Origin: Candidatus Nomurabacteria bacterium
GTDB taxonomy: Bacteria > Patescibacteriota > Minisyncoccia > Phycocordibacterales > UBA9973
DNA length: 64,000 nt
Assembly: GCA_023267275.1 (NCBI GenBank)
Contig: JAHFNO010000006.1
Location: 9,519 to 73,518 of the forward strand
Direction of reading: 5' to 3'
Shown here: piece after piece, positions 5,885-61,523 of the stretch
How positions within the stretch are numbered: the stretch's first letter is position 1
How the letters are laid out: the number at the start of each line of letters is the position of its first letter
Made by a program: the position numbers and the translations under genes
Notes under the pieces: model-generated
Databases searched by the model: none
What the model was told of the DNA's origin: nothing
The model's input: the letters and a program-made list of their open reading frames with translations, nothing else

Positions 5885-6541
5885 GTGGCTATCAGCGCAA
5901 CAGCAACTCAAGAATTTGTTCCAATCAAAGAAGTCCGTGAAGGAACCATCGTTCTTAAAGATGGTGGTCTCCGGGCTATTATTGCCGTCTCATCAGTAAA
6001 CCTTGCCCTCAAATCAAGCGACGAGCAAATTGCAACAATCAATCAATTTCAGTCATTTCTCAATTCGATCGATTTTCCTATTCAAATAGTTATTCAATCT
6101 CGCCGTCTTGATATTCGACCATATCTCCTTATGCTCGAAGGCAAAATGAAAGACCAGCACGAACCTCTCCTTAAACTACAGACCGCTGGATATATTAGTT
6201 TCATTCGTGAATTTACCGAACAAGTCGCCATCATGCGCAAATACTTTTACGTAGTTATTCCCTATGAAGAAGCAGCGATTTCAACAAAAAAAGGTTTTTT
6301 GGGTGGAATTTTTGGGAACAAACAATCTGGACAGACAAAACAAATGGCTGAAAATGCAAGCTTTGAAGAAAAGCGAACACAACTTGATGAGCGCGTAAGT
6401 GTGATCGCAAATGGACTTGGCAGTGTTGGTGCTCGTACTGAGCGCCTGCAAACGGAGGAGGTGATCGAGCTCTTCTACAAGACATTCAATCCTGGAGATA
6501 TTCAACCTGCAGTAAAACTCGCCGAAGTAGTAAATCAATAA
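5885..6541 (+). CDS. VirB4/TraE N-terminal domain encoded as a separate gene
   Basis: GTG start. Matches the CagE/TrbE/VirB4 N-domain pattern (EGTIVLKDGGLRAIIAVSSVNLALKSSDEQ ... FPIQIVIQSRRLDIRPYL ... MRKYFYVVIPYEE). It is in a different frame from the downstream ATPase gene and separated from it by a 103-nt intergenic region. Confidence 0.6.
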   Translation: MAISATATQEFVPIKEVREGTIVLKDGGLRAIIAVSSVNLALKSSDEQIATINQFQSFLNSIDFPIQIVIQSRRLDIRPYLLMLEGKMKDQHEPLLKLQTAGYISFIREFTEQVAIMRKYFYVVIPYEEAAISTKKGFLGGIFGNKQSGQTKQMAENASFEEKRTQLDERVSVIANGLGSVGARTERLQTEEVIELFYKTFNPGDIQPAVKLAEVVNQ

Positions 6542-50210: not shown

Positions 50211-50513
50211 ACCCGCACACTTACTTTTTTATTACTCTCATGTTTTATGTATATGTTTTGAAAAGTAAAAAAGATGAAGAATTGTACATTGGTTCAACCA
50301 ATGATCTTAAGCGTAGAATAAAAGAACATGAGAGTGGAGAGAGTTTTTCAACAAAGCTGAGGAGACCTTTTGATTTAATTTATTACGAAGCATATAAAGA
50401 TGAGAAGGACGCAAGAAAGAGAGAGTCATCATTGAAACTTCGTGGAAGGTCTCGTTTTCATTTAATGCAAAGATTAAAAAACTCTCTCCTATAAAAAAGT
50501 AAGTGTGCGGGTA
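50211..50513 (+). mobile_element. GIY-YIG gene bracketed by perfect 20-bp inverted repeats (putative mini mobile element)
   Basis: Left inverted repeat ACCCGCACACTTACTTTTTT at 50211-50230; its exact reverse complement at 50494-50513; the CDS between them is GIY-YIG. Confidence 0.55.
50240..50494 (+). CDS. GIY-YIG (URI-domain) nuclease family protein, 84 aa
   Basis: MFYVYVLKSKKDEELYIGSTNDLKRRIKEHESGE ... matches the short stand-alone GIY-YIG family. Confidence 0.8.
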   Translation: MFYVYVLKSKKDEELYIGSTNDLKRRIKEHESGESFSTKLRRPFDLIYYEAYKDEKDARKRESSLKLRGRSRFHLMQRLKNSLL

Positions 50514-52193: not shown

Positions 52194-52266
52194 CCGCCCG
52201 TAGCTCAGCTGGTAGAGCAGCTCCCTTTTAAGGAGAGGGTCGCAGGTTCGATTCCTGCCGGGCGGA
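52194..52266 (+). tRNA. tRNA-Lys (anticodon UUU)
   Basis: Manual fold: acceptor CCGCCCG/CGGGCGG, D-loop AGCTGGTA, anticodon loop CTTTTAA, T-arm GCAGG-TTCGATT-CCTGC, discriminator A. No CCA is encoded. Confidence 0.85.
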
Positions 52267-52373
52267 CACTTACAAAAATGAGCTCGACTTTTAGGTCGAG
52301 CCATTTTTGTGTGTCCGCCCGGAGAAAGCCAACTTCTCATTCAGCAGAATGACTCTTGGAGTAAGGCTTTCGT

Positions 52374-52463
52374 CAGGAATCGAAAGACTTTTCGTTACCG
52401 AAGTTTACTTCGGTCGAAAAGTATCTGGCGACGTGGTCGCCGATCCGTGTACTCACTTCCTGC
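52374..52463 (+). ncRNA. conserved 90-nt structured element downstream of tRNA (copy 1)
   Basis: Shares CAGGAATCGAAAGACTTTTC ... GAAAAGTAYCTG ... CGATCCGTGTACTCACTTCCTGC with 58335-58424. The two internal hairpins differ at every base pair between copies but stay fully paired. Confidence 0.5.
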
Positions 52464-52505
52464 TGCATTCAATAACTTTCGATAAGAGTACTCGCGATCC
52501 TGCTT

Positions 52506-56086: not shown

Positions 56087-56671
56087 TTATTTTTTTCCTA
56101 AAATTTTAAGGGCCTCTTTAATACGCGCGTTTGTTCCGATGATTTCGGCAGGCACTTCTTTGAGTGCATCGCGAGCTTCGTTTTGAGAATAGCCGAGTGC
56201 TTTGAGTGCTTCAACAACATCAGACTCGGCGCGGAGTTCATGTGGATTTTCTTTTGTATCGGCATGCGCTTTGAGCTTGTCGCGCAATTCGAGCACTACT
56301 TTTTCTGCAGTCTTGCGGCCGATGCCAGAAACTTTTGTGAGATAACTCGTGTCGCCAGTAGCGATTGCTTTCTTGAGTGTGTTGGTCGATGTTGCACTCA
56401 AAATTGCGAGTGCACCTTTTGGTCCGATACCAGAAACAGAAATAAGGAGCTGAAAAAAATCTTCTTCCTCGCGAGAAACAAATCCGTACAAATCGAGTGC
56501 ATCTTCACGTACGACAAGATAGGTAAAAAGCGATGCCGGTGTATCTTCGCGAAGTTGGGCAAGGGTATCGGTTGAACAATATACTTTGTAGCCAACGCCA
56601 CGAACGTCGATGACTGCAAATTTTTCACTGAGTTCGATGATGGTGCCTGTTAAATGCGATATCATGAACAT
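56087..56671 (-). CDS. ruvA: Holliday junction DNA helicase RuvA
   Basis: MISHLTGTIIE...VIDVRGVGYKV OB-fold N-terminus and HhH motifs (GIGPKGALAIL, GIGRKTAEKV). Confidence 0.85.
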   Translation of the reverse strand: MFMISHLTGTIIELSEKFAVIDVRGVGYKVYCSTDTLAQLREDTPASLFTYLVVREDALDLYGFVSREEEDFFQLLISVSGIGPKGALAILSATSTNTLKKAIATGDTSYLTKVSGIGRKTAEKVVLELRDKLKAHADTKENPHELRAESDVVEALKALGYSQNEARDALKEVPAEIIGTNARIKEALKILGKK

Positions 56672-56834
56672 AGTATACAGTATTCAGTATACGGTATACA
56701 GTATAGGTATCAGACCCTTGAATATCTAAAGTATTTCTGGTATAGTGTTTTTGCCTAAGTATGGTGTCTCGTATTTGGGTCGTTTTATTTCATACTGTAT
56801 ACGAAATACCGTATACTTAATACTAATTCAATCT

Positions 56835-58191: not shown

Positions 58192-58263
58192 GATCCTGTC
58201 GTTCAACGGATAGGACACTCCCCTGCGAAGGGAGAAATGCAGGTTCGATTCCTGCCAGGATCA
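58192..58263 (+). tRNA. tRNA with anticodon GCG (reads Arg codon CGC), variable loop 4 nt
   Basis: Manual fold: acceptor GATCCTG/CAGGATC, D-arm GTTC-AACGGATA-GGAC, anticodon stem CTCCC/GGGAG with loop CTGCGAA, T-arm GCAGG-TTCGATT-CCTGC, discriminator A. Confidence 0.65.
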
Positions 58264-58334
58264 CAAAAAGAAAAAGCACCCATTAGGGTGTTTTTTCTTT
58301 TTGTGTCCTGAGCGAGCCAACTGTTTGGCTCGCG

Positions 58335-58424
58335 GCAGGAATCGAAAGACTTTTCTATGTTTTGTTTACAAAACAAGAAAAGTACCTGCCTATGTAATAG
58401 GCGATCCGTGTACTCACTTCCTGC
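58335..58424 (+). ncRNA. conserved 90-nt structured element downstream of tRNA (copy 2)
   Basis: See 52374-52463. Hairpins TTTTGTT/AACAAAA and CCTAT-GTA-ATAGG replace CCGAAGT/ACTTCGG and GCGAC-GTG-GTCGC. Confidence 0.5.
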
Positions 58425-58578
58425 CAGGATCACCAAGTCGTGACTACTCACGAGGAGCTTAAAATGCTCTAAATATAGCCAAATCAAAAAACTACCCGAT
58501 TGGGTAGTTTTTTGATTTGGCTATTACTGTTTATTTGCGAGAGAAGTAAATTCAAACCCCTGAGGGCTATGACATCCT

Positions 58579-58848
58579 ATGTTTAATGAAACTAAGTACA
58601 CTATCGCCATAAGTATGGGCGAGGCTTTGGAAGAGCATCAAAAACGTCTTGAAGAAGAGATTAGAAAAACATATTATAACGGGCAAAGAGAAAAAGGTGA
58701 TGAGTTGACCCGTGAAAAAGTGAATACGCTTTATGCTTACTTTCCTGTAAAAATAGACCACGAAAATGATTCTAATAATATGTCACTCGTTAAAAGATTT
58801 AATGTGTTAAGACAAGGTATTGAGAAGTTGTTTCGACGGAAAAAATAA
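58579..58848 (+). CDS. hypothetical protein
   Basis: ORF only. Confidence 0.4.
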   Translation: MFNETKYTIAISMGEALEEHQKRLEEEIRKTYYNGQREKGDELTREKVNTLYAYFPVKIDHENDSNNMSLVKRFNVLRQGIEKLFRRKK

Positions 58849-59024
58849 TTTTCACTTTTAATAAAAATACTCAAACATATCAAAATTTCGAGTTTTAAAT
58901 CGGTATCGTTCCAGAAAACATAAGACTACCAAACATGTTGATTTGTTAGGAAATAATTTTACATAATAAAACCCCCTGACAATTTTGCCAGAGGGTTTGA
59001 ATATTTTATTCCCGCTTTACTTAA

Positions 59025-59570
59025 TTACTGCACCGTTTTTTTCCTAAAAACAAGAAAATCCGGTATCAACAATTTTAACGAAACTTCCTTGTTGCCAGCT
59101 TCCTTCATTCTCTCTAATGTTCCGAGTGGGTCAATCAGAAAACTAACACCAACAAGGACAATTAGAAACCCTACTAAAGTGAGGAGAACAAATCTGAAAA
59201 CCTCGTCACCAGCAGTGCTTAAGAAATGATCTTGTCCGGGTGTTATCCCGTGAGAATCATGGTGACACTCAACTTTAATCCCGTTAGGAGTCGATTTTAC
59301 ATAATAAAACCGATGGTCTTCATTAACATTGGGGAAAACCGTAACCCAGCTTTTTTCAACATTTGGATAAAAGTAAGATTTTACTATATCAAATGATGTT
59401 AAATTTAAACCAGCCACCGGAATACCCCGCCCGTTTTCAAAGCTGTATTTTTGAGGCTCAAATCTTTGATTCTCAATGTATGCTTTGATTGGGAAAAGTG
59501 GTAGTACGATTAGAGCTATGCTCATAATACGTAGCAGTGCTGCGCGATGCGCAAGAACAAACTTTTTCAT
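59025..59570 (-). CDS. hypothetical membrane protein (N- and C-terminal TM segments)
   Basis: Hydrophobic segments MSIALIVLPLF and FVLLTLVGFLIVLVGVSFLI. Confidence 0.45.
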   Translation of the reverse strand: MKKFVLAHRAALLRIMSIALIVLPLFPIKAYIENQRFEPQKYSFENGRGIPVAGLNLTSFDIVKSYFYPNVEKSWVTVFPNVNEDHRFYYVKSTPNGIKVECHHDSHGITPGQDHFLSTAGDEVFRFVLLTLVGFLIVLVGVSFLIDPLGTLERMKEAGNKEVSLKLLIPDFLVFRKKTVQ

Positions 59571-59643
59571 TTAATACGTTTTTGAGTTGAACATTGTTTT
59601 GGTGCCTTAGACCCGTGTCTAAGACTATCCGGTAGTTATTTCT

Positions 59644-60135
59644 TTAGGATTTTGGCTTCATTAACGTGTCTTCGTTTATACTCCTCAAGCATTCCAAGTC
59701 GTGTTCCTTTTCAGCAATTTTCTGAAAAGCATTCCTTGTTGCTTGTGGTGTTCGGCCGTTAGATAAATACCAATCATACCCATCTCCGCTAAACCTTTTG
59801 CGGAGAAACCTCGCAGTACTATCCGGCCCCAAAGTCCGCTCAAGTACCAAAATGGCGTCATGCGTAAGCTTGAGGTAGTTTGTGTGGTCTATCCAAGCTA
59901 TACGTGTAAACGCTATTTTAATTGCGCTTGCTTTCAGGGTGTCATTTGGACGCACTAGGTACGTCTTCATGGTGTCCAGGGATAATCGTTCAACTAGCGA
60001 CACTCTTACACCAGGGTAAACCGTAGTGTCGTCAGTGATTATAATTCCAGCGTTACTATTTTTCGCGCTGTTTTTTTGATCGCAATAAGCGATTGTGCCT
60101 ATAACAAGCAAAGCGGCGATGATAAAGCTTCTCAT
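59644..60135 (-). CDS. secreted hypothetical protein
   Basis: The Met at 60135 begins a signal peptide (MRSFIIAALLVIGTIAYC); the ORF-track alternative start is 60201. Confidence 0.45.
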   Translation of the reverse strand: MRSFIIAALLVIGTIAYCDQKNSAKNSNAGIIITDDTTVYPGVRVSLVERLSLDTMKTYLVRPNDTLKASAIKIAFTRIAWIDHTNYLKLTHDAILVLERTLGPDSTARFLRKRFSGDGYDWYLSNGRTPQATRNAFQKIAEKEHDLECLRSINEDTLMKPKS

Positions 60136-60534
60136 ATGTCTATTGTGTTGTTTTTGTGGCGTAAAGCCGTTTTTTGAATTGGTTGCCCCAAGGGCTATCA
60201 AGCCATTCAGGCAACCAATTCAAGTTAAAGCAACCTTATTTTCAAAGGATATACTTATGTTTAGTATAACATATACATCATAAAAAGTCAAGCAAAATAA
60301 CCTTGTAAAATAAGGGTAGAAAAGCTAAGAAGAGTATAAAAATGGGGAATTTTGACCCAAAATCTGCCATAGATTATATTAACTAATCGTTATTTCCTTA
60401 GCGAACTTTTTCAGCAGAAAAAGATTTGTGACCGATACGTGTACTCATTTCCTGTCAGGATCACATCCTCGTGATGGCTCATGAGGAGTTTAAGAAGCTC
60501 TACATAAAGTACCCCCCCAATTGGTTTAAATGTA

Positions 60535-61476: not shown

Positions 61477-61523
61477 TAGGTCTTGCCTAGGCTATGCAAT
61501 AGGTCTTGCCTAGGCTATGCAAA
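61477..61523. repeat. tandem direct repeat, 2 x ~23 nt (AGGTCTTGCCTAGGCTATGCAA)
   Basis: Exact tandem copies, each containing a CCTAGG palindrome. The repeat lies between the start of 60535-61449 (-) and the stop of 61487-62239 (-). Confidence 0.8.

What the first reader, a model, noticed from the sequence alone, without database searches (positions are those of the whole stretch)
52267..52470. Conserved structured 90-nt RNA-like module downstream of both tRNA genes, with complete compensatory covariation
After tRNA-Lys (52374-52463) and after the GCG-anticodon tRNA (58335-58424) the same element appears. It has conserved single-stranded blocks (CAGGAATCGAAAGACTTTTC, GAAAAGTAYCTG, CGATCCGTGTACTCACTTCCTGC), an outer stem CAGGAA/TTCCTG, and an inner stem GACTTTTC/GAAAAGT. 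It has two internal hairpins whose sequences are completely different in the two copies yet remain perfectly paired. The first is CCGAAGT/ACTTCGG versus TTTTGTT/AACAAAA. The second is GCGAC-GUG-GUCGC versus CCUAU-GUA-AUAGG. Covariation of every base pair is the classical signature of selection on RNA secondary structure. Between the tRNA and the module, each locus also has a terminator-like hairpin and a short segment complementary to the tRNA's own 3' acceptor strand (gtgtccgcccgg at locus 1, gtgtcctg at locus 2). Upstream of tRNA-Lys, a CGGGCG segment is complementary to the tRNA's own 5' acceptor strand. A third, partial copy (GATACGTGTACTCATTTCCTGTCAGGATCAC...) lies at 60423-60455. I could not match the element to hammerhead (no CUGANGA core), T-box, or any riboswitch I know. 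It may be a small ribozyme, a tRNA-processing or regulatory element, or the RNA component of an integration system that uses tRNA genes.
Basis: seen in the sequence. Interest (0 to 1): 0.75.

Follow-up and report, generated by a model that had tools for sequence, protein, structure and literature searches.

The report
tRNA-tail structured RNA insertion element
The 90-base module is real and is the core of a widespread, apparently undescribed family of small non-coding elements that sit just after tRNA and tmRNA genes, fold into a conserved RNA structure, and carry arms copied from the 3' end of the neighbouring tRNA.

Summary
Two 90-nt modules (52374-52463 and 58335-58424, + strand) share identical unpaired blocks and have fully different but paired hairpins. 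A covariance model found 31 further copies. In these, 94.6% of cells are paired, against 62.7% in shuffles, and 28 of 29 pairs show compensatory change.

The module is only the core of a larger element of about 130-220 nt. Its order is: tRNA, terminator-like palindrome, inverted copy of the acceptor 3' strand, conserved hairpin, inverted copy of the T-stem/T-loop, three-way-junction module, direct copy of the tRNA 3' end.

The conserved hairpin alone hit at least 120 metagenome contigs. It lies behind 34 anticodon types and behind tmRNA genes, in Patescibacteria and in at least one betaproteobacterium. A second module type, found 99 times, has a conserved G.U pair. This places the RNA on the tRNA strand.

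No Rfam family, paper or linked protein gene was found. Orthologous tRNA loci carry different module types, tandem copies and truncated older copies lying further from the tRNA.

Best reading: a protein-less, tRNA-3'-end-specific structured-RNA insertion element. The insertion mechanism is inferred, not shown.

The parts
52194..52266 (+). tRNA-Lys(UUU) gene, the host of element copy 1
   Evidence: Rfam tRNA model, 68.8 bits, anticodon loop CUUUUAA. ARAGORN calls it 'Stop tta', probably because it uses a different register of the anticodon stem.
52258..52322 (.). Palindrome that joins the tRNA acceptor 3' strand, a bidirectional terminator-like hairpin (core 52282-52301) and the acceptor complement
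   Evidence: Inverted repeat I21, arms 52258-52276 and 52304-52322. Terminator-like sites on both strands.
52311..52322 (+). (a): GTGTCCGCCCGG, an inverted copy of the tRNA acceptor 3' strand plus trailer
   Evidence: Read from the sequence. General feature of the family.
52323..52372 (+). Conserved hairpin HP (AGCC AACU..UUGG..GGCU), here with a 26-nt sub-hairpin inserted in its loop
   Evidence: Read from the sequence. The same expanded variant sits at tRNA-Arg in relative L132.
52374..52463 (+). Type A module, copy 1. P1 5' strand (b) 52374-52379; J1 UCGAAAG 52380-52386; P2 52387-52422; J2/3 52423-52427; P3 52428-52440; linker 52441-52446; 3-bp block hairpin 52447-52456; P1 3' strand (c) 52457-52463.
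   Evidence: Fold; covariance model R1, 104.7 bits; pair counts.
52479..52503 (+). Remnant of an older copy: TCGATAAG-AGTACTCGC-GATCCTGC, which is the block plus (c)
   Evidence: Read from the sequence. It matches the block consensus in alignment A4.
58192..58263 (+). tRNA-Arg(GCG) gene, the host of element copy 2
   Evidence: Rfam tRNA model, 64.2 bits; ARAGORN.
58262..58305 (.). Terminator-like palindrome that starts inside the tRNA 3' end
   Evidence: Inverted repeat I12, 20-nt arms, 95% complementary; terminator scan.
58303..58310 (+). (a): GTGTCCTG, the complement of CAGGA(T)CAC
   Evidence: Read from the sequence.
58311..58334 (+). Canonical conserved hairpin HP: AGCGAGCCAACTGTTTGGCTCGCG
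   Evidence: Pattern match. The same hairpin occurs in at least 120 metagenome contigs. The covarying position is A-T 86, G-C 57, G-T 1 and A-C 0.
58335..58424 (+). Type A module, copy 2. P1 5' strand (b) 58335-58341; J1 58342-58348; P2 58349-58383; J2/3 58384-58388; P3 58389-58401; linker 58402-58407; block 58408-58417; P1 3' strand (c) 58418-58424.
   Evidence: Fold; model R1, 95.4 bits.
58425..58435 (+). (c'): a direct copy of the tRNA-Arg acceptor 3' strand plus discriminator, followed by CCA. The tRNA gene itself does not encode CCA.
   Evidence: Repeat D4; CCA tabulation.
58475..58524 (.). Perfect 23-bp palindromic terminator that bounds the element on its right
   Evidence: Inverted repeat I5; terminator scan.
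60400..60465 (+). 5'-truncated older element: the P3 end of a type B module, then block, (c) and (c'). The 77-nt repeat runs on to 60509.
   Evidence: Repeat D1. It is orthologous to the intact type B + block element next to tRNA-Arg in L132 and L133.

Best explanation
The module is the core of a small (about 130-220 nt), protein-less, non-coding element. The family lives immediately 3' of tRNA and tmRNA genes, on the same strand.

ANATOMY. Read 5' to 3', an element has these parts:
- (a), an inverted copy of the tRNA acceptor 3' strand;
- a conserved hairpin (HP);
- (b), an inverted copy of the T-stem 3' strand plus T-loop;
- junction J1, GAAA;
- a long hairpin P2, often with tandem G.A pairs;
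- a second domain P3, of type A, B or C;
- sometimes a 14-nt block;
- (c) and (c'), a direct copy of the tRNA 3' end running from the T-loop to the discriminator.

SHOWN. As RNA on the tRNA strand, (b) pairs with (c) and (a) pairs with (c'). The element therefore forms a rod that copies the acceptor/T-arm helix of its own tRNA. HP stands where the D and anticodon arms would be, and the three-way-junction module stands in place of the T-loop. The structure is under selection. The arms match the neighbouring tRNA. Copies are gained next to the tRNA, older copies lie further from it and decay, and module types are exchanged.

INFERRED. The element propagates as a selfish insertion. The tRNA-derived arms give it base-pairing or homology to the highly conserved tRNA 3' end. 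Insertion duplicates that end, so the tRNA stays intact. Host recombination, or another trans-acting host enzyme, does the DNA work. The conserved RNA core is needed for a step in that cycle or for processing of the read-through transcript.
For: STRUCTURE
- Type A: 31 copies, 94.6% of cells paired against 62.7% in shuffles and 39-52% with the partner slid. 28 of 29 pairs show a change on both sides.
- Type B/C: 74 copies aligned, 87.5% paired against 67.6%, 22 of 23 pairs compensatory. 25 more copies turned up in the other loci.

STRAND
- In type A, G.U 20 against A.C 5, and G.A 24.
- A P3 pair in type B/C is G.U in 47 of 72 sequences and never G-C.

TARGET
- 105 of 134 HP hits lie just after a same-strand tRNA, covering 34 anticodon types. 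Others follow tmRNA genes.

ARMS (n=98; own tRNA against other isoacceptors)
- (b): longest exact complement 9.8 nt against 5.6.
- (a): 6.8 nt against 3.7.
- (c): direct copy 13.9 nt against 6.1.
- In L001-B the T-stem has G.U pairs. The element carries the exact complement of the 3' strand, not a copy of the 5' strand.
- (a) follows acceptor-stem differences between close relatives.

TURNOVER
- The orthologous tRNA-Lys site holds type A in the window, type B in L130 and a mosaic in L127.
- The orthologous tRNA-Arg site holds type A plus a remnant in the window. It holds B + A + a remnant in L132, B + a remnant in L133, and A in L135.
- Tandem copies occur in L014, L086, L107 and L115. Copies truncated at either end also occur.
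- The ten closest module pairs all sit at different tRNA isoacceptors.

NO PARTNER, NO ANNOTATION
- No enriched neighbouring protein family.
- No Rfam hit.
- No match in plasmid or phage records.
- No paper found.

OTHER
- Saccharibacteria are naturally competent (abstract of bioRxiv 10.1101/2023.05.02.539146, listed; published version PMC10633639). Recombination-driven spread is therefore plausible.
Against: - No insertion event was caught. There is no filled/empty pair of otherwise identical sequences, so mobility is inferred from turnover.
- No mechanism explains how the interspersed arms (a), (b) and (c) become matched to a new tRNA while HP and the module stay constant.
- A terminator-like hairpin lies between most tRNAs and the element, and no promoter-like site was found before the element. 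Transcription is therefore unproven.
- The element is very common (roughly a third to two thirds of tRNA genes in positive contigs). Junction nucleotides are perfectly conserved between old sub-lineages, for example W1 against W2. Both facts would also fit a host function.
- The structural alignments were fitted to the model, which inflates the pairing percentages.
Confidence: 0.5

Rival explanations
1. A host-beneficial, cis-encoded tRNA-like small RNA or 3'-trailer domain. The element is read through from the tRNA promoter. The long duplex formed by the tRNA 3' end, the terminator and (a), or the minihelix-like end formed by (a) with (c'), directs RNase III, P or Z processing. The released tRNA-mimicking RNA, or the structure itself, then acts in tRNA maturation, quality control, or as a decoy for factors that bind tRNA ends.
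For: - The element is present at a large share of tRNA genes and persists at orthologous loci across deep divergence.
- Unpaired nucleotides are 100% conserved between sub-lineages whose stems have fully diverged.
- The family spans phyla.
- The predicted fold of the whole tRNA-Arg + element transcript is a 'giant tRNA'. The tRNA 5' strands pair with (c) and (c'), with z = -13.6.
- 10 of 54 (c) copies carry CCA where the tRNA gene copy does not.
Against: - Individual copies decay freely. Copies truncated at the 5' or 3' end and mosaic copies are common.
- Module types are interchangeable at one and the same locus.
- Tandem arrays occur.
- A terminator-like hairpin separates most elements from the tRNA.
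- Many tRNA genes in the same contigs lack the element.
Confidence: 0.25
2. A non-autonomous retroelement or ribozyme-based mobile RNA. The element RNA is co-transcribed with the tRNA. Its bipartite complement (a)+(b) works like a primer-binding site or guide for the tRNA 3' end. A reverse transcriptase supplied in trans, or a self-cleaving/ligating core, copies or inserts it next to the tRNA gene.
For: - (a)-HP-(b) has a guide-hairpin-guide layout, complementary to the last 20 nt or so of the tRNA.
- The core is a conserved three-way junction with invariant junction nucleotides and a conserved G.U pair.
- 5'-truncated copies keep the 3' end.
- The closest relative's genome encodes a DGR-type reverse transcriptase.
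- Some (c) copies carry CCA.
Against: - No reverse transcriptase is enriched near the elements. The window itself shows none near them.
- 3'-truncated copies are as common as 5'-truncated ones.
- No known ribozyme family matches.
- (a) includes the complement of the gene's trailer, not of CCA. This points to DNA or the precursor rather than mature tRNA.
Confidence: 0.12
3. Leftover attachment sites of integrase-mediated genomic islands or prophages that target the T-loop of tRNA and tmRNA genes. These would be CIME-like attL/attR remnants built up by repeated integration and deletion.
For: - The position at tRNA and tmRNA 3' ends, the direct repeat of the tRNA 3' end starting in the T-loop, and the build-up of remnants away from the tRNA are all classic features of such sites.
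- Real integrase islands do occur at these genes in related contigs: L128 and L036.
Against: - No integrase is enriched nearby.
- The whole unit is only 130-220 nt.
- One conserved hairpin and module accompanies 34 different tRNA types, which one integrase family would not explain.
- The sequence left of (c) does not resemble a core-type inverted site.
- RNA-type covariation, strand-specific G.U and tandem G.A pairs are not expected of protein-binding arms.
Confidence: 0.06

Closest known systems
Integrative elements at tRNA/tmRNA genes (T-loop sublocation of tyrosine integrases) and their gene-less CIME remnants
   Same: Sits at the 3' end of tRNA and tmRNA genes. Duplicates the tRNA 3' end from the T-loop onward, so the tRNA stays intact. 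Repeated events leave a row of remnants leading away from the tRNA.
   Different: Only 130-220 nt, with no integrase nearby. Adds an inverted copy of the tRNA end. Has a conserved structured-RNA core with covariation. One family serves at least 34 tRNA types.
Bacterial MITE-like mosaic repeats (BOX, ERIC, Correia, RPE)
   Same: Short, non-coding, multi-copy, modular or mosaic, foldable, and often found next to terminators.
   Different: No fixed terminal inverted repeats. The arms are rewritten to match each target tRNA. Strict tRNA/tmRNA target. Found across phyla. Strand-specific RNA signals.
tRNA-like RNA domains (tmRNA tRNA-like domain, viral 3' tRNA-like structures, YrlA, mascRNA)
   Same: An acceptor-like helix stacked on a T-stem-like helix, with a 3' discriminator and sometimes CCA. 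The rest of the tRNA is replaced by other structure.
   Different: The T-loop itself is replaced by the module. The helix sequence copies whichever tRNA is next door. Neither the tRNA nor the tmRNA model recognises it.
Site-specific elements co-transcribed with a host RNA gene (R2/SIDE in 28S rDNA; group I introns in Patescibacteria tRNAs, PMC13011429)
   Same: Live inside or beside a conserved RNA gene. Use pairing with host-gene sequence. Have a structured RNA core. Leave truncated copies.
   Different: No reverse transcriptase, no endonuclease and no group I core (tested against Rfam). The element lies after the gene, not within it. It carries its own copy of the host 3' end.
Bipartite guide RNAs (H/ACA pocket; IS110 bridge RNA loops)
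   Same: Two guide segments flanking a hairpin pair with one continuous target strand.
   Different: No partner protein gene. In cis the 'target' is the element's own (c) segment. The resemblance is topological only and was not tested.
Small self-cleaving ribozymes with three-way junctions (hammerhead and others)
   Same: A compact three-way junction with invariant junction nucleotides and freely covarying stems.
   Different: No CUGANGA core. No Rfam ribozyme family matches at E<=1-10. Cleavage was not tested.

Membership tests
Hammerhead ribozyme | Three-way junction with a CUGANGA and GAAA core, recognised by the Rfam hammerhead models | tested here: not met
   No hammerhead hit in the window at E<=10 or in 17 loci at E<=1. 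J1 has GAAA, but no CUGANGA is present.
Other curated self-cleaving ribozymes (twister, twister-sister, pistol, hatchet, HDV-like, hairpin) | A match to the family covariance model | tested here: not met
   cmscan against all 4227 Rfam 15 families found only tRNA, tmRNA and unrelated hits. This held for type A, B and C elements.
Self-cleaving ribozyme (any class) | Site-specific self-cleavage of the transcript | not testable with these tools
   Needs an in-vitro transcription and cleavage assay.
tRNA / tmRNA gene | Cloverleaf, or tRNA-like domain with an intact T-loop, recognised by ARAGORN or by Rfam RF00005 / RF00023 | tested here: not met
   ARAGORN and Rfam call only the upstream tRNAs. 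The element has no T-loop, because those nucleotides are paired in P1.
tRNA-like minihelix mimic | An acceptor-like helix continuous with a T-stem-like helix, plus discriminator and NCCA at the 3' end | tested here: inconclusive
   The helices are present in about half of copies: 46 of 98 have a full (c'). Among the 69 loci where a direct copy of the tRNA 3' end was located, CCA follows the copy in 21. W1 lacks (c'). Recognition by RNase P or the CCA-adding enzyme was not tested.
T-box / riboswitch leader | Lies upstream of a regulated gene on the same strand and matches a curated aptamer model | tested here: not met
   No Rfam match. Downstream genes are unrelated and often convergent.
Integrase attachment-site remnant (CIME-like) | Direct repeat of the tRNA 3' end flanking the inserted DNA | tested here: met
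   The (c) copy averages 13.9 nt of exact identity to the element's own tRNA, against 6.1 nt in controls. It usually begins at T-loop position C56.
Integrase attachment-site remnant (CIME-like) | A cognate tyrosine or serine integrase in the same or a tandem element | tested here: not met
   Clustering 759 neighbouring ORFs from about 120 loci gave no integrase or transposase cluster. The isolated integrases in L036 and L128 belong to other insertions.
MITE | Constant terminal inverted repeats recognised by a transposase, plus a short fixed-length target-site duplication | tested here: not met
   The terminal arms differ with each tRNA. The duplicated segment is 6-68 nt.
Group I intron | P1-P9 core recognised by Rfam RF00028, interrupting the gene | tested here: not met
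   RF00028 hits only unrelated positions in L031. The element follows an intact tRNA.
Retroelement (non-LTR, SINE-like, retron) | An associated reverse transcriptase, or an excess of 5'-truncated copies | tested here: inconclusive
   No reverse transcriptase is enriched nearby. A DGR reverse transcriptase exists about 1.3 kb from the tRNA-Arg site in L132 only. Copies truncated at either end occur.
IS110-type bridge RNA | Encoded in the end of an element that carries a DEDD recombinase gene | tested here: not met
   There is no ORF inside the elements (hairpin start to end of the tRNA copy is 99-220 nt in 45 of 46 loci). No recombinase cluster was found.
Evolutionarily conserved structured RNA (generic) | Compensatory base-pair changes well above shuffled and slid controls, with strand-specific G.U | tested here: met
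   Caveat: the alignments were fitted to the models.

The most novel reading that the evidence does not exclude
These elements are a new class of protein-less mobile RNA/DNA. The guide-hairpin-guide segment (a)-HP-(b) and the identical-sense segment (c) can between them pair with both strands of the tRNA gene's 3' end. They would thereby direct homing to tRNA and tmRNA genes using only host enzymes, and the arms would be re-templated from the target at each move. This would be an RNA-programmed insertion system with no dedicated recombinase.
Probability: 0.2. Interest if true: 0.95.

Novelty: categorically new. Interest (0 to 1): 0.82.

Why it matters
If this reading holds, many tRNA and tmRNA genes of Patescibacteria, and of at least some Proteobacteria, carry an unannotated structured RNA element. 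The element mimics and duplicates the 3' end of its host tRNA.

- It would add a new kind of genetic parasite or tRNA-linked RNA to very small genomes.
- It would explain recurrent 'partial tRNA' fragments and long intergenic regions behind tRNA genes.
- It would mark hot spots where foreign DNA enters these genomes. In the window, a 2-kb insert lies between two copies.
- It poses a clear mechanistic puzzle: how three interspersed arms stay matched to each target tRNA without a linked protein.
- It gives two ready covariance models for annotation, and a candidate for new RNA catalysis or RNA-guided recombination.

Tried and rejected
LED NOWHERE
- An exact composite pattern of the type A blocks gave only one genome hit (L001), no metagenome hit, and three chance hits inside viral coding regions.
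- HP was absent from viral contigs.
- BLAST against plasmid and phage records found nothing.
- Seven literature searches found nothing relevant, including one for the hairpin sequence itself. The nearest paper concerns group I introns in Patescibacteria tRNA anticodon loops (PMC13011429). A genomic-language-model preprint on intergenic features does not mention tRNA.
- Pfam on nine neighbouring window ORFs gave only a small GIY-YIG protein.
- A plain MAFFT + RNAalifold run on 14 copies recovered only two helices, because length-variable hairpins misaligned. Covariance models fixed this.

CONSIDERED AND REJECTED
- A protein-coding reading of the minus strand. The similarity between copies is explained by the RNA blocks, and there is no long ORF.
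- A degenerate inverted tRNA gene. The segment order does not fit.
- A spliceable intron in the T-loop. The W copies lack a full T-loop in (c), and the upstream tRNA is already intact.
- An HDV-like or group I reading of the conserved G.U pair. No model matches and the splice-site context is wrong.
- P3 of W1 and W2 being copied from the local tRNA. The same P3 variants occur in other genomes at other tRNAs.
- The upstream CGGGCG as part of the element. It is at chance level.
- A larger autonomous version with an ORF between (b) and (c). The few long cases hold unrelated genes.
Full report
**1. Checking the observation**

The window has two tRNA genes: Lys(UUU) at 52194-52266 and Arg(GCG) at 58192-58263. 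About 107 and 72 nt after them lie two 90-nt segments, 52374-52463 and 58335-58424.
- Their unpaired blocks are identical, and two of their hairpins are completely different yet paired.
- The block patterns occur nowhere else in the 64 kb. Chance expectation is 0.21 and 0.03 matches.
- Each copy folds into the same outer stem, long hairpin, second hairpin and 3-bp hairpin, with z = -4.3 and -5.7.

- The 'third copy' is at 60434-60464. It belongs to a 77-nt repeat, 58402-58478 against 60433-60509.
- The CGGGCG upstream of tRNA-Lys is not a feature of the family. Over 93 loci the upstream complement averages 3.38 nt, against 3.54 nt in controls.

**2. The module is part of a bigger, tRNA-matched element**

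One genome hit is a Saccharibacteria MAG (L001). There the 'outer stem' is CTGGGAA/TTCCCAG, which is the T-stem of that locus's tRNA-Pro. In the window it is GCAGGAA/TTCCTGC, the T-stem of both window tRNAs.

Reading outward gave a constant order:
1. the tRNA;
2. a spacer, usually an A/T-flanked bidirectional terminator-like palindrome;
3. (a), the complement of the acceptor 3' strand;
4. a conserved hairpin HP, AGCRAGCCAACUGCUUGGCUYGCG;
5. (b), the complement of the T-stem 3' strand and T-loop;
6. the module;
7. (c), a direct copy of the tRNA 3' end.

A second element in L001 follows a tRNA-Arg whose T-stem has G.U pairs. That element carries the exact complement of the 3' strand, not a copy of the 5' strand.

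**3. Distribution**

The contigs come from groundwater, sludge, wetland and soil. HP was not found in viral contigs.
- 105 of 134 HP hits lie just after a same-strand tRNA, median 43 nt. They cover 34 anticodon types. Others follow tmRNA genes or are tandem copies.
- In these contigs many further tRNAs carry elements with a variant HP or none.
- The window's relatives are named Pacebacteria and Nomurabacteria.
- High-GC contigs also carry the element. One of them, L033, is from Usitatibacteraceae, a betaproteobacterial family.

Arm statistics (n=98):

| Arm | Measure | Own tRNA | Other isoacceptors |
|---|---|---|---|
| (b) | longest exact complement | 9.8 nt | 5.6 nt |
| (a) | longest exact complement | 6.8 nt | 3.7 nt |
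| (c) | longest exact direct copy | 13.9 nt | 6.1 nt |

**4. It is a structured RNA on the tRNA strand**

*Type A.* Model R1, built on the window type, found 31 copies at E<1e-4.
- 94.6% of cells are paired, against 62.7% in shuffles and 39-52% with the partner slid.
- 28 of 29 pairs show changes on both sides.
- The covariation score is 0.687, against 0.177 in shuffles.

*Type B/C.* Model R2, built on the commoner type, found 74 + 25 copies. 87.5% of cells are paired, against 67.6%, and 22 of 23 pairs are compensatory.

*Strand evidence.*
- In type A, G.U pairs outnumber A.C 20 to 5, with 24 G.A cells.
- One P3 pair in type B/C is G.U in 47 of 72 sequences and never G-C.
- Where (b) reads GAGAA instead of UCGAA, it forms tandem G.A pairs with the CGA of (c).
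- HP stems vary freely, while the HP loop AACUGCUU is kept.

*Shared architecture.* All types share P1 (b:c), junction J1 GAAA, and P2, which often has a GAGC/GCGA tandem G.A motif. P3 differs by type. In type A it is preceded by GUACYG and has a YGURR pentaloop. An optional 14-nt block, a 3-bp covarying stem around UACU, sits inside the T-loop copy. Hybrids of type B with the block exist.

*Caveat.* These alignments were fitted to the models, so the pairing percentages lean toward the structure.

*Whole-transcript fold.* The predicted fold of the full tRNA-Arg + element transcript looks like a 'giant tRNA'. The tRNA's 5' acceptor and T-stem strands pair with (c') and (c). The tRNA's own 3' end pairs with (a) and (b). 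The energy is -122.8 kcal/mol, z = -13.6.

**5. Behaviour over evolutionary time**

Orthologous loci were fetched through neighbouring proteins.

| Locus | tRNA-Lys site | tRNA-Arg(GCG) site |
|---|---|---|
| Window | type A + a block remnant (52479-52503) | type A, then a 2-kb insert, then a 5'-truncated type B + block remnant (60400-60465) |
| L130/L132 (RuvA 92% identical) | type B; its (a) and (b) match its changed T-stem, but it keeps the old (c) | intact type B + block, then a type A, then a remnant |
| L127 | mosaic of decayed B and A pieces | - |
| L128 | tRNA cut by an integrase island | - |
| L133 | - | type B + remnant |
| L135 | - | a different type A |

(tRNA-Lys. tRNA-Arg.)

- The pattern is consistent with new copies appearing next to the tRNA and older ones being displaced and decaying.
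- (a) follows acceptor-stem differences among these relatives.
- Tandem arrays and copies truncated at either end are common.
- The ten most similar module pairs, 75-85% identical, all sit at different tRNA isoacceptors. Several of these come from sister samples.
- W1 and W2 belong to two sub-lineages. Each P3 variant recurs in another genome: W1's in L001 and L127, W2's in L034. Their unpaired nucleotides are nevertheless identical, which implies sequence-level selection on the core.

**6. What it is not**

- No Rfam 15 family matches any type.
- ARAGORN does not call the element as a tRNA or tmRNA.
- No integrase, transposase or reverse transcriptase is enriched among 759 neighbouring ORFs.
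- No ORF-bearing 'autonomous' version was seen.
- Neighbouring window ORFs have no Pfam domains.
- No similar DNA is present in plasmid or phage records.
- No paper was found.

**7. Interpretation**

*Shown:* a conserved, strand-specific RNA structure; arms that match the adjacent tRNA; specificity for tRNA and tmRNA 3' ends; multiplicity and turnover; no linked protein.

*Inferred:* the family is a selfish, protein-less insertion element.
- It duplicates the tRNA 3' end, which leaves the tRNA intact.
- It uses its tRNA-derived arms for pairing or homology with this highly conserved target.
- Host recombination probably does the DNA work. Saccharibacteria are naturally competent (abstract listed).
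- The conserved core serves a step of that cycle, or processing of the transcript.

*Unexplained:* how the three interspersed arms become matched to a new tRNA while HP and the module remain constant, and whether the terminator-like hairpin lets the element be transcribed at all.

*Main rival:* a host-useful tRNA-like small RNA or processing domain. Retroelement/ribozyme and att-remnant readings are less likely.

**8. Verdict**

The finding is real and not chance. Its mechanism is open. Interest is high.

Noticed in passing
window 52194-52267; also L125, L127, L130/L132: ARAGORN labels this tRNA 'Stop, anticodon tta'. The Rfam tRNA model aligns a canonical CUUUUAA loop, which gives Lys(UUU). 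Each of the two anticodon-stem registers has one mismatch. It is probably an ordinary tRNA-Lys rather than a UAA suppressor.
   Followed up: partly
L132 2270-3754 (GCA_964456475.1, the closest relative): A DGR-type reverse transcriptase (RVT_1, 339 aa) and a bAvd-like gene lie between S20 and RuvA. The window has no such insert at that place.
   Followed up: no
L128 about 2790-2840 and 1726-2646: The orthologous tRNA-Lys is cut in its anticodon loop by an island that carries a tyrosine integrase. This is a classical integrative element, unrelated to the small element.
   Followed up: partly
window 58434-60400: A 2-kb segment with three ORFs (89, 181 and 185 aa, no Pfam hits) lies between element copy 2 and the older remnant. 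It is bounded by the 77-nt repeat. It looks like foreign DNA that entered by recombination at the repeated tRNA-tail sequence.
   Followed up: partly
L015 about 6152-6240: A tRNA-like chimera: the 5' half of a class II tRNA (acceptor, D arm, a stem-loop) is joined to the 3' part of a type C module, followed by the acceptor 3' strand and CCA. ARAGORN does not call it.
   Followed up: no
L031 245-478 and 714-1004: Two Rfam group I introns lie next to or within tRNA genes of a Patescibacteria-like contig. This is in line with PMC13011429.
   Followed up: no
window 61477-61522: An exact tandem duplication of a 23-nt unit, TAGGTCTTGCCTAGGCTATGCAA, at the end of, or just after, the 250-aa ORF.
   Followed up: no
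window 56671-56825: A pair of 34-nt inverted repeats rich in GTATAC, about 88 nt apart, in the RuvA/S20 intergenic region.
   Followed up: no
window 52323-52372 and L132 about 823-870: The HP loop can hold an extra 26-nt sub-hairpin (CAUUC AGCA GAAUG...). The same expanded variant sits at tRNA-Lys in the window and at tRNA-Arg in the close relative.
   Followed up: partly
window 50240-50494: A small stand-alone GIY-YIG domain protein (84 aa).
   Followed up: no
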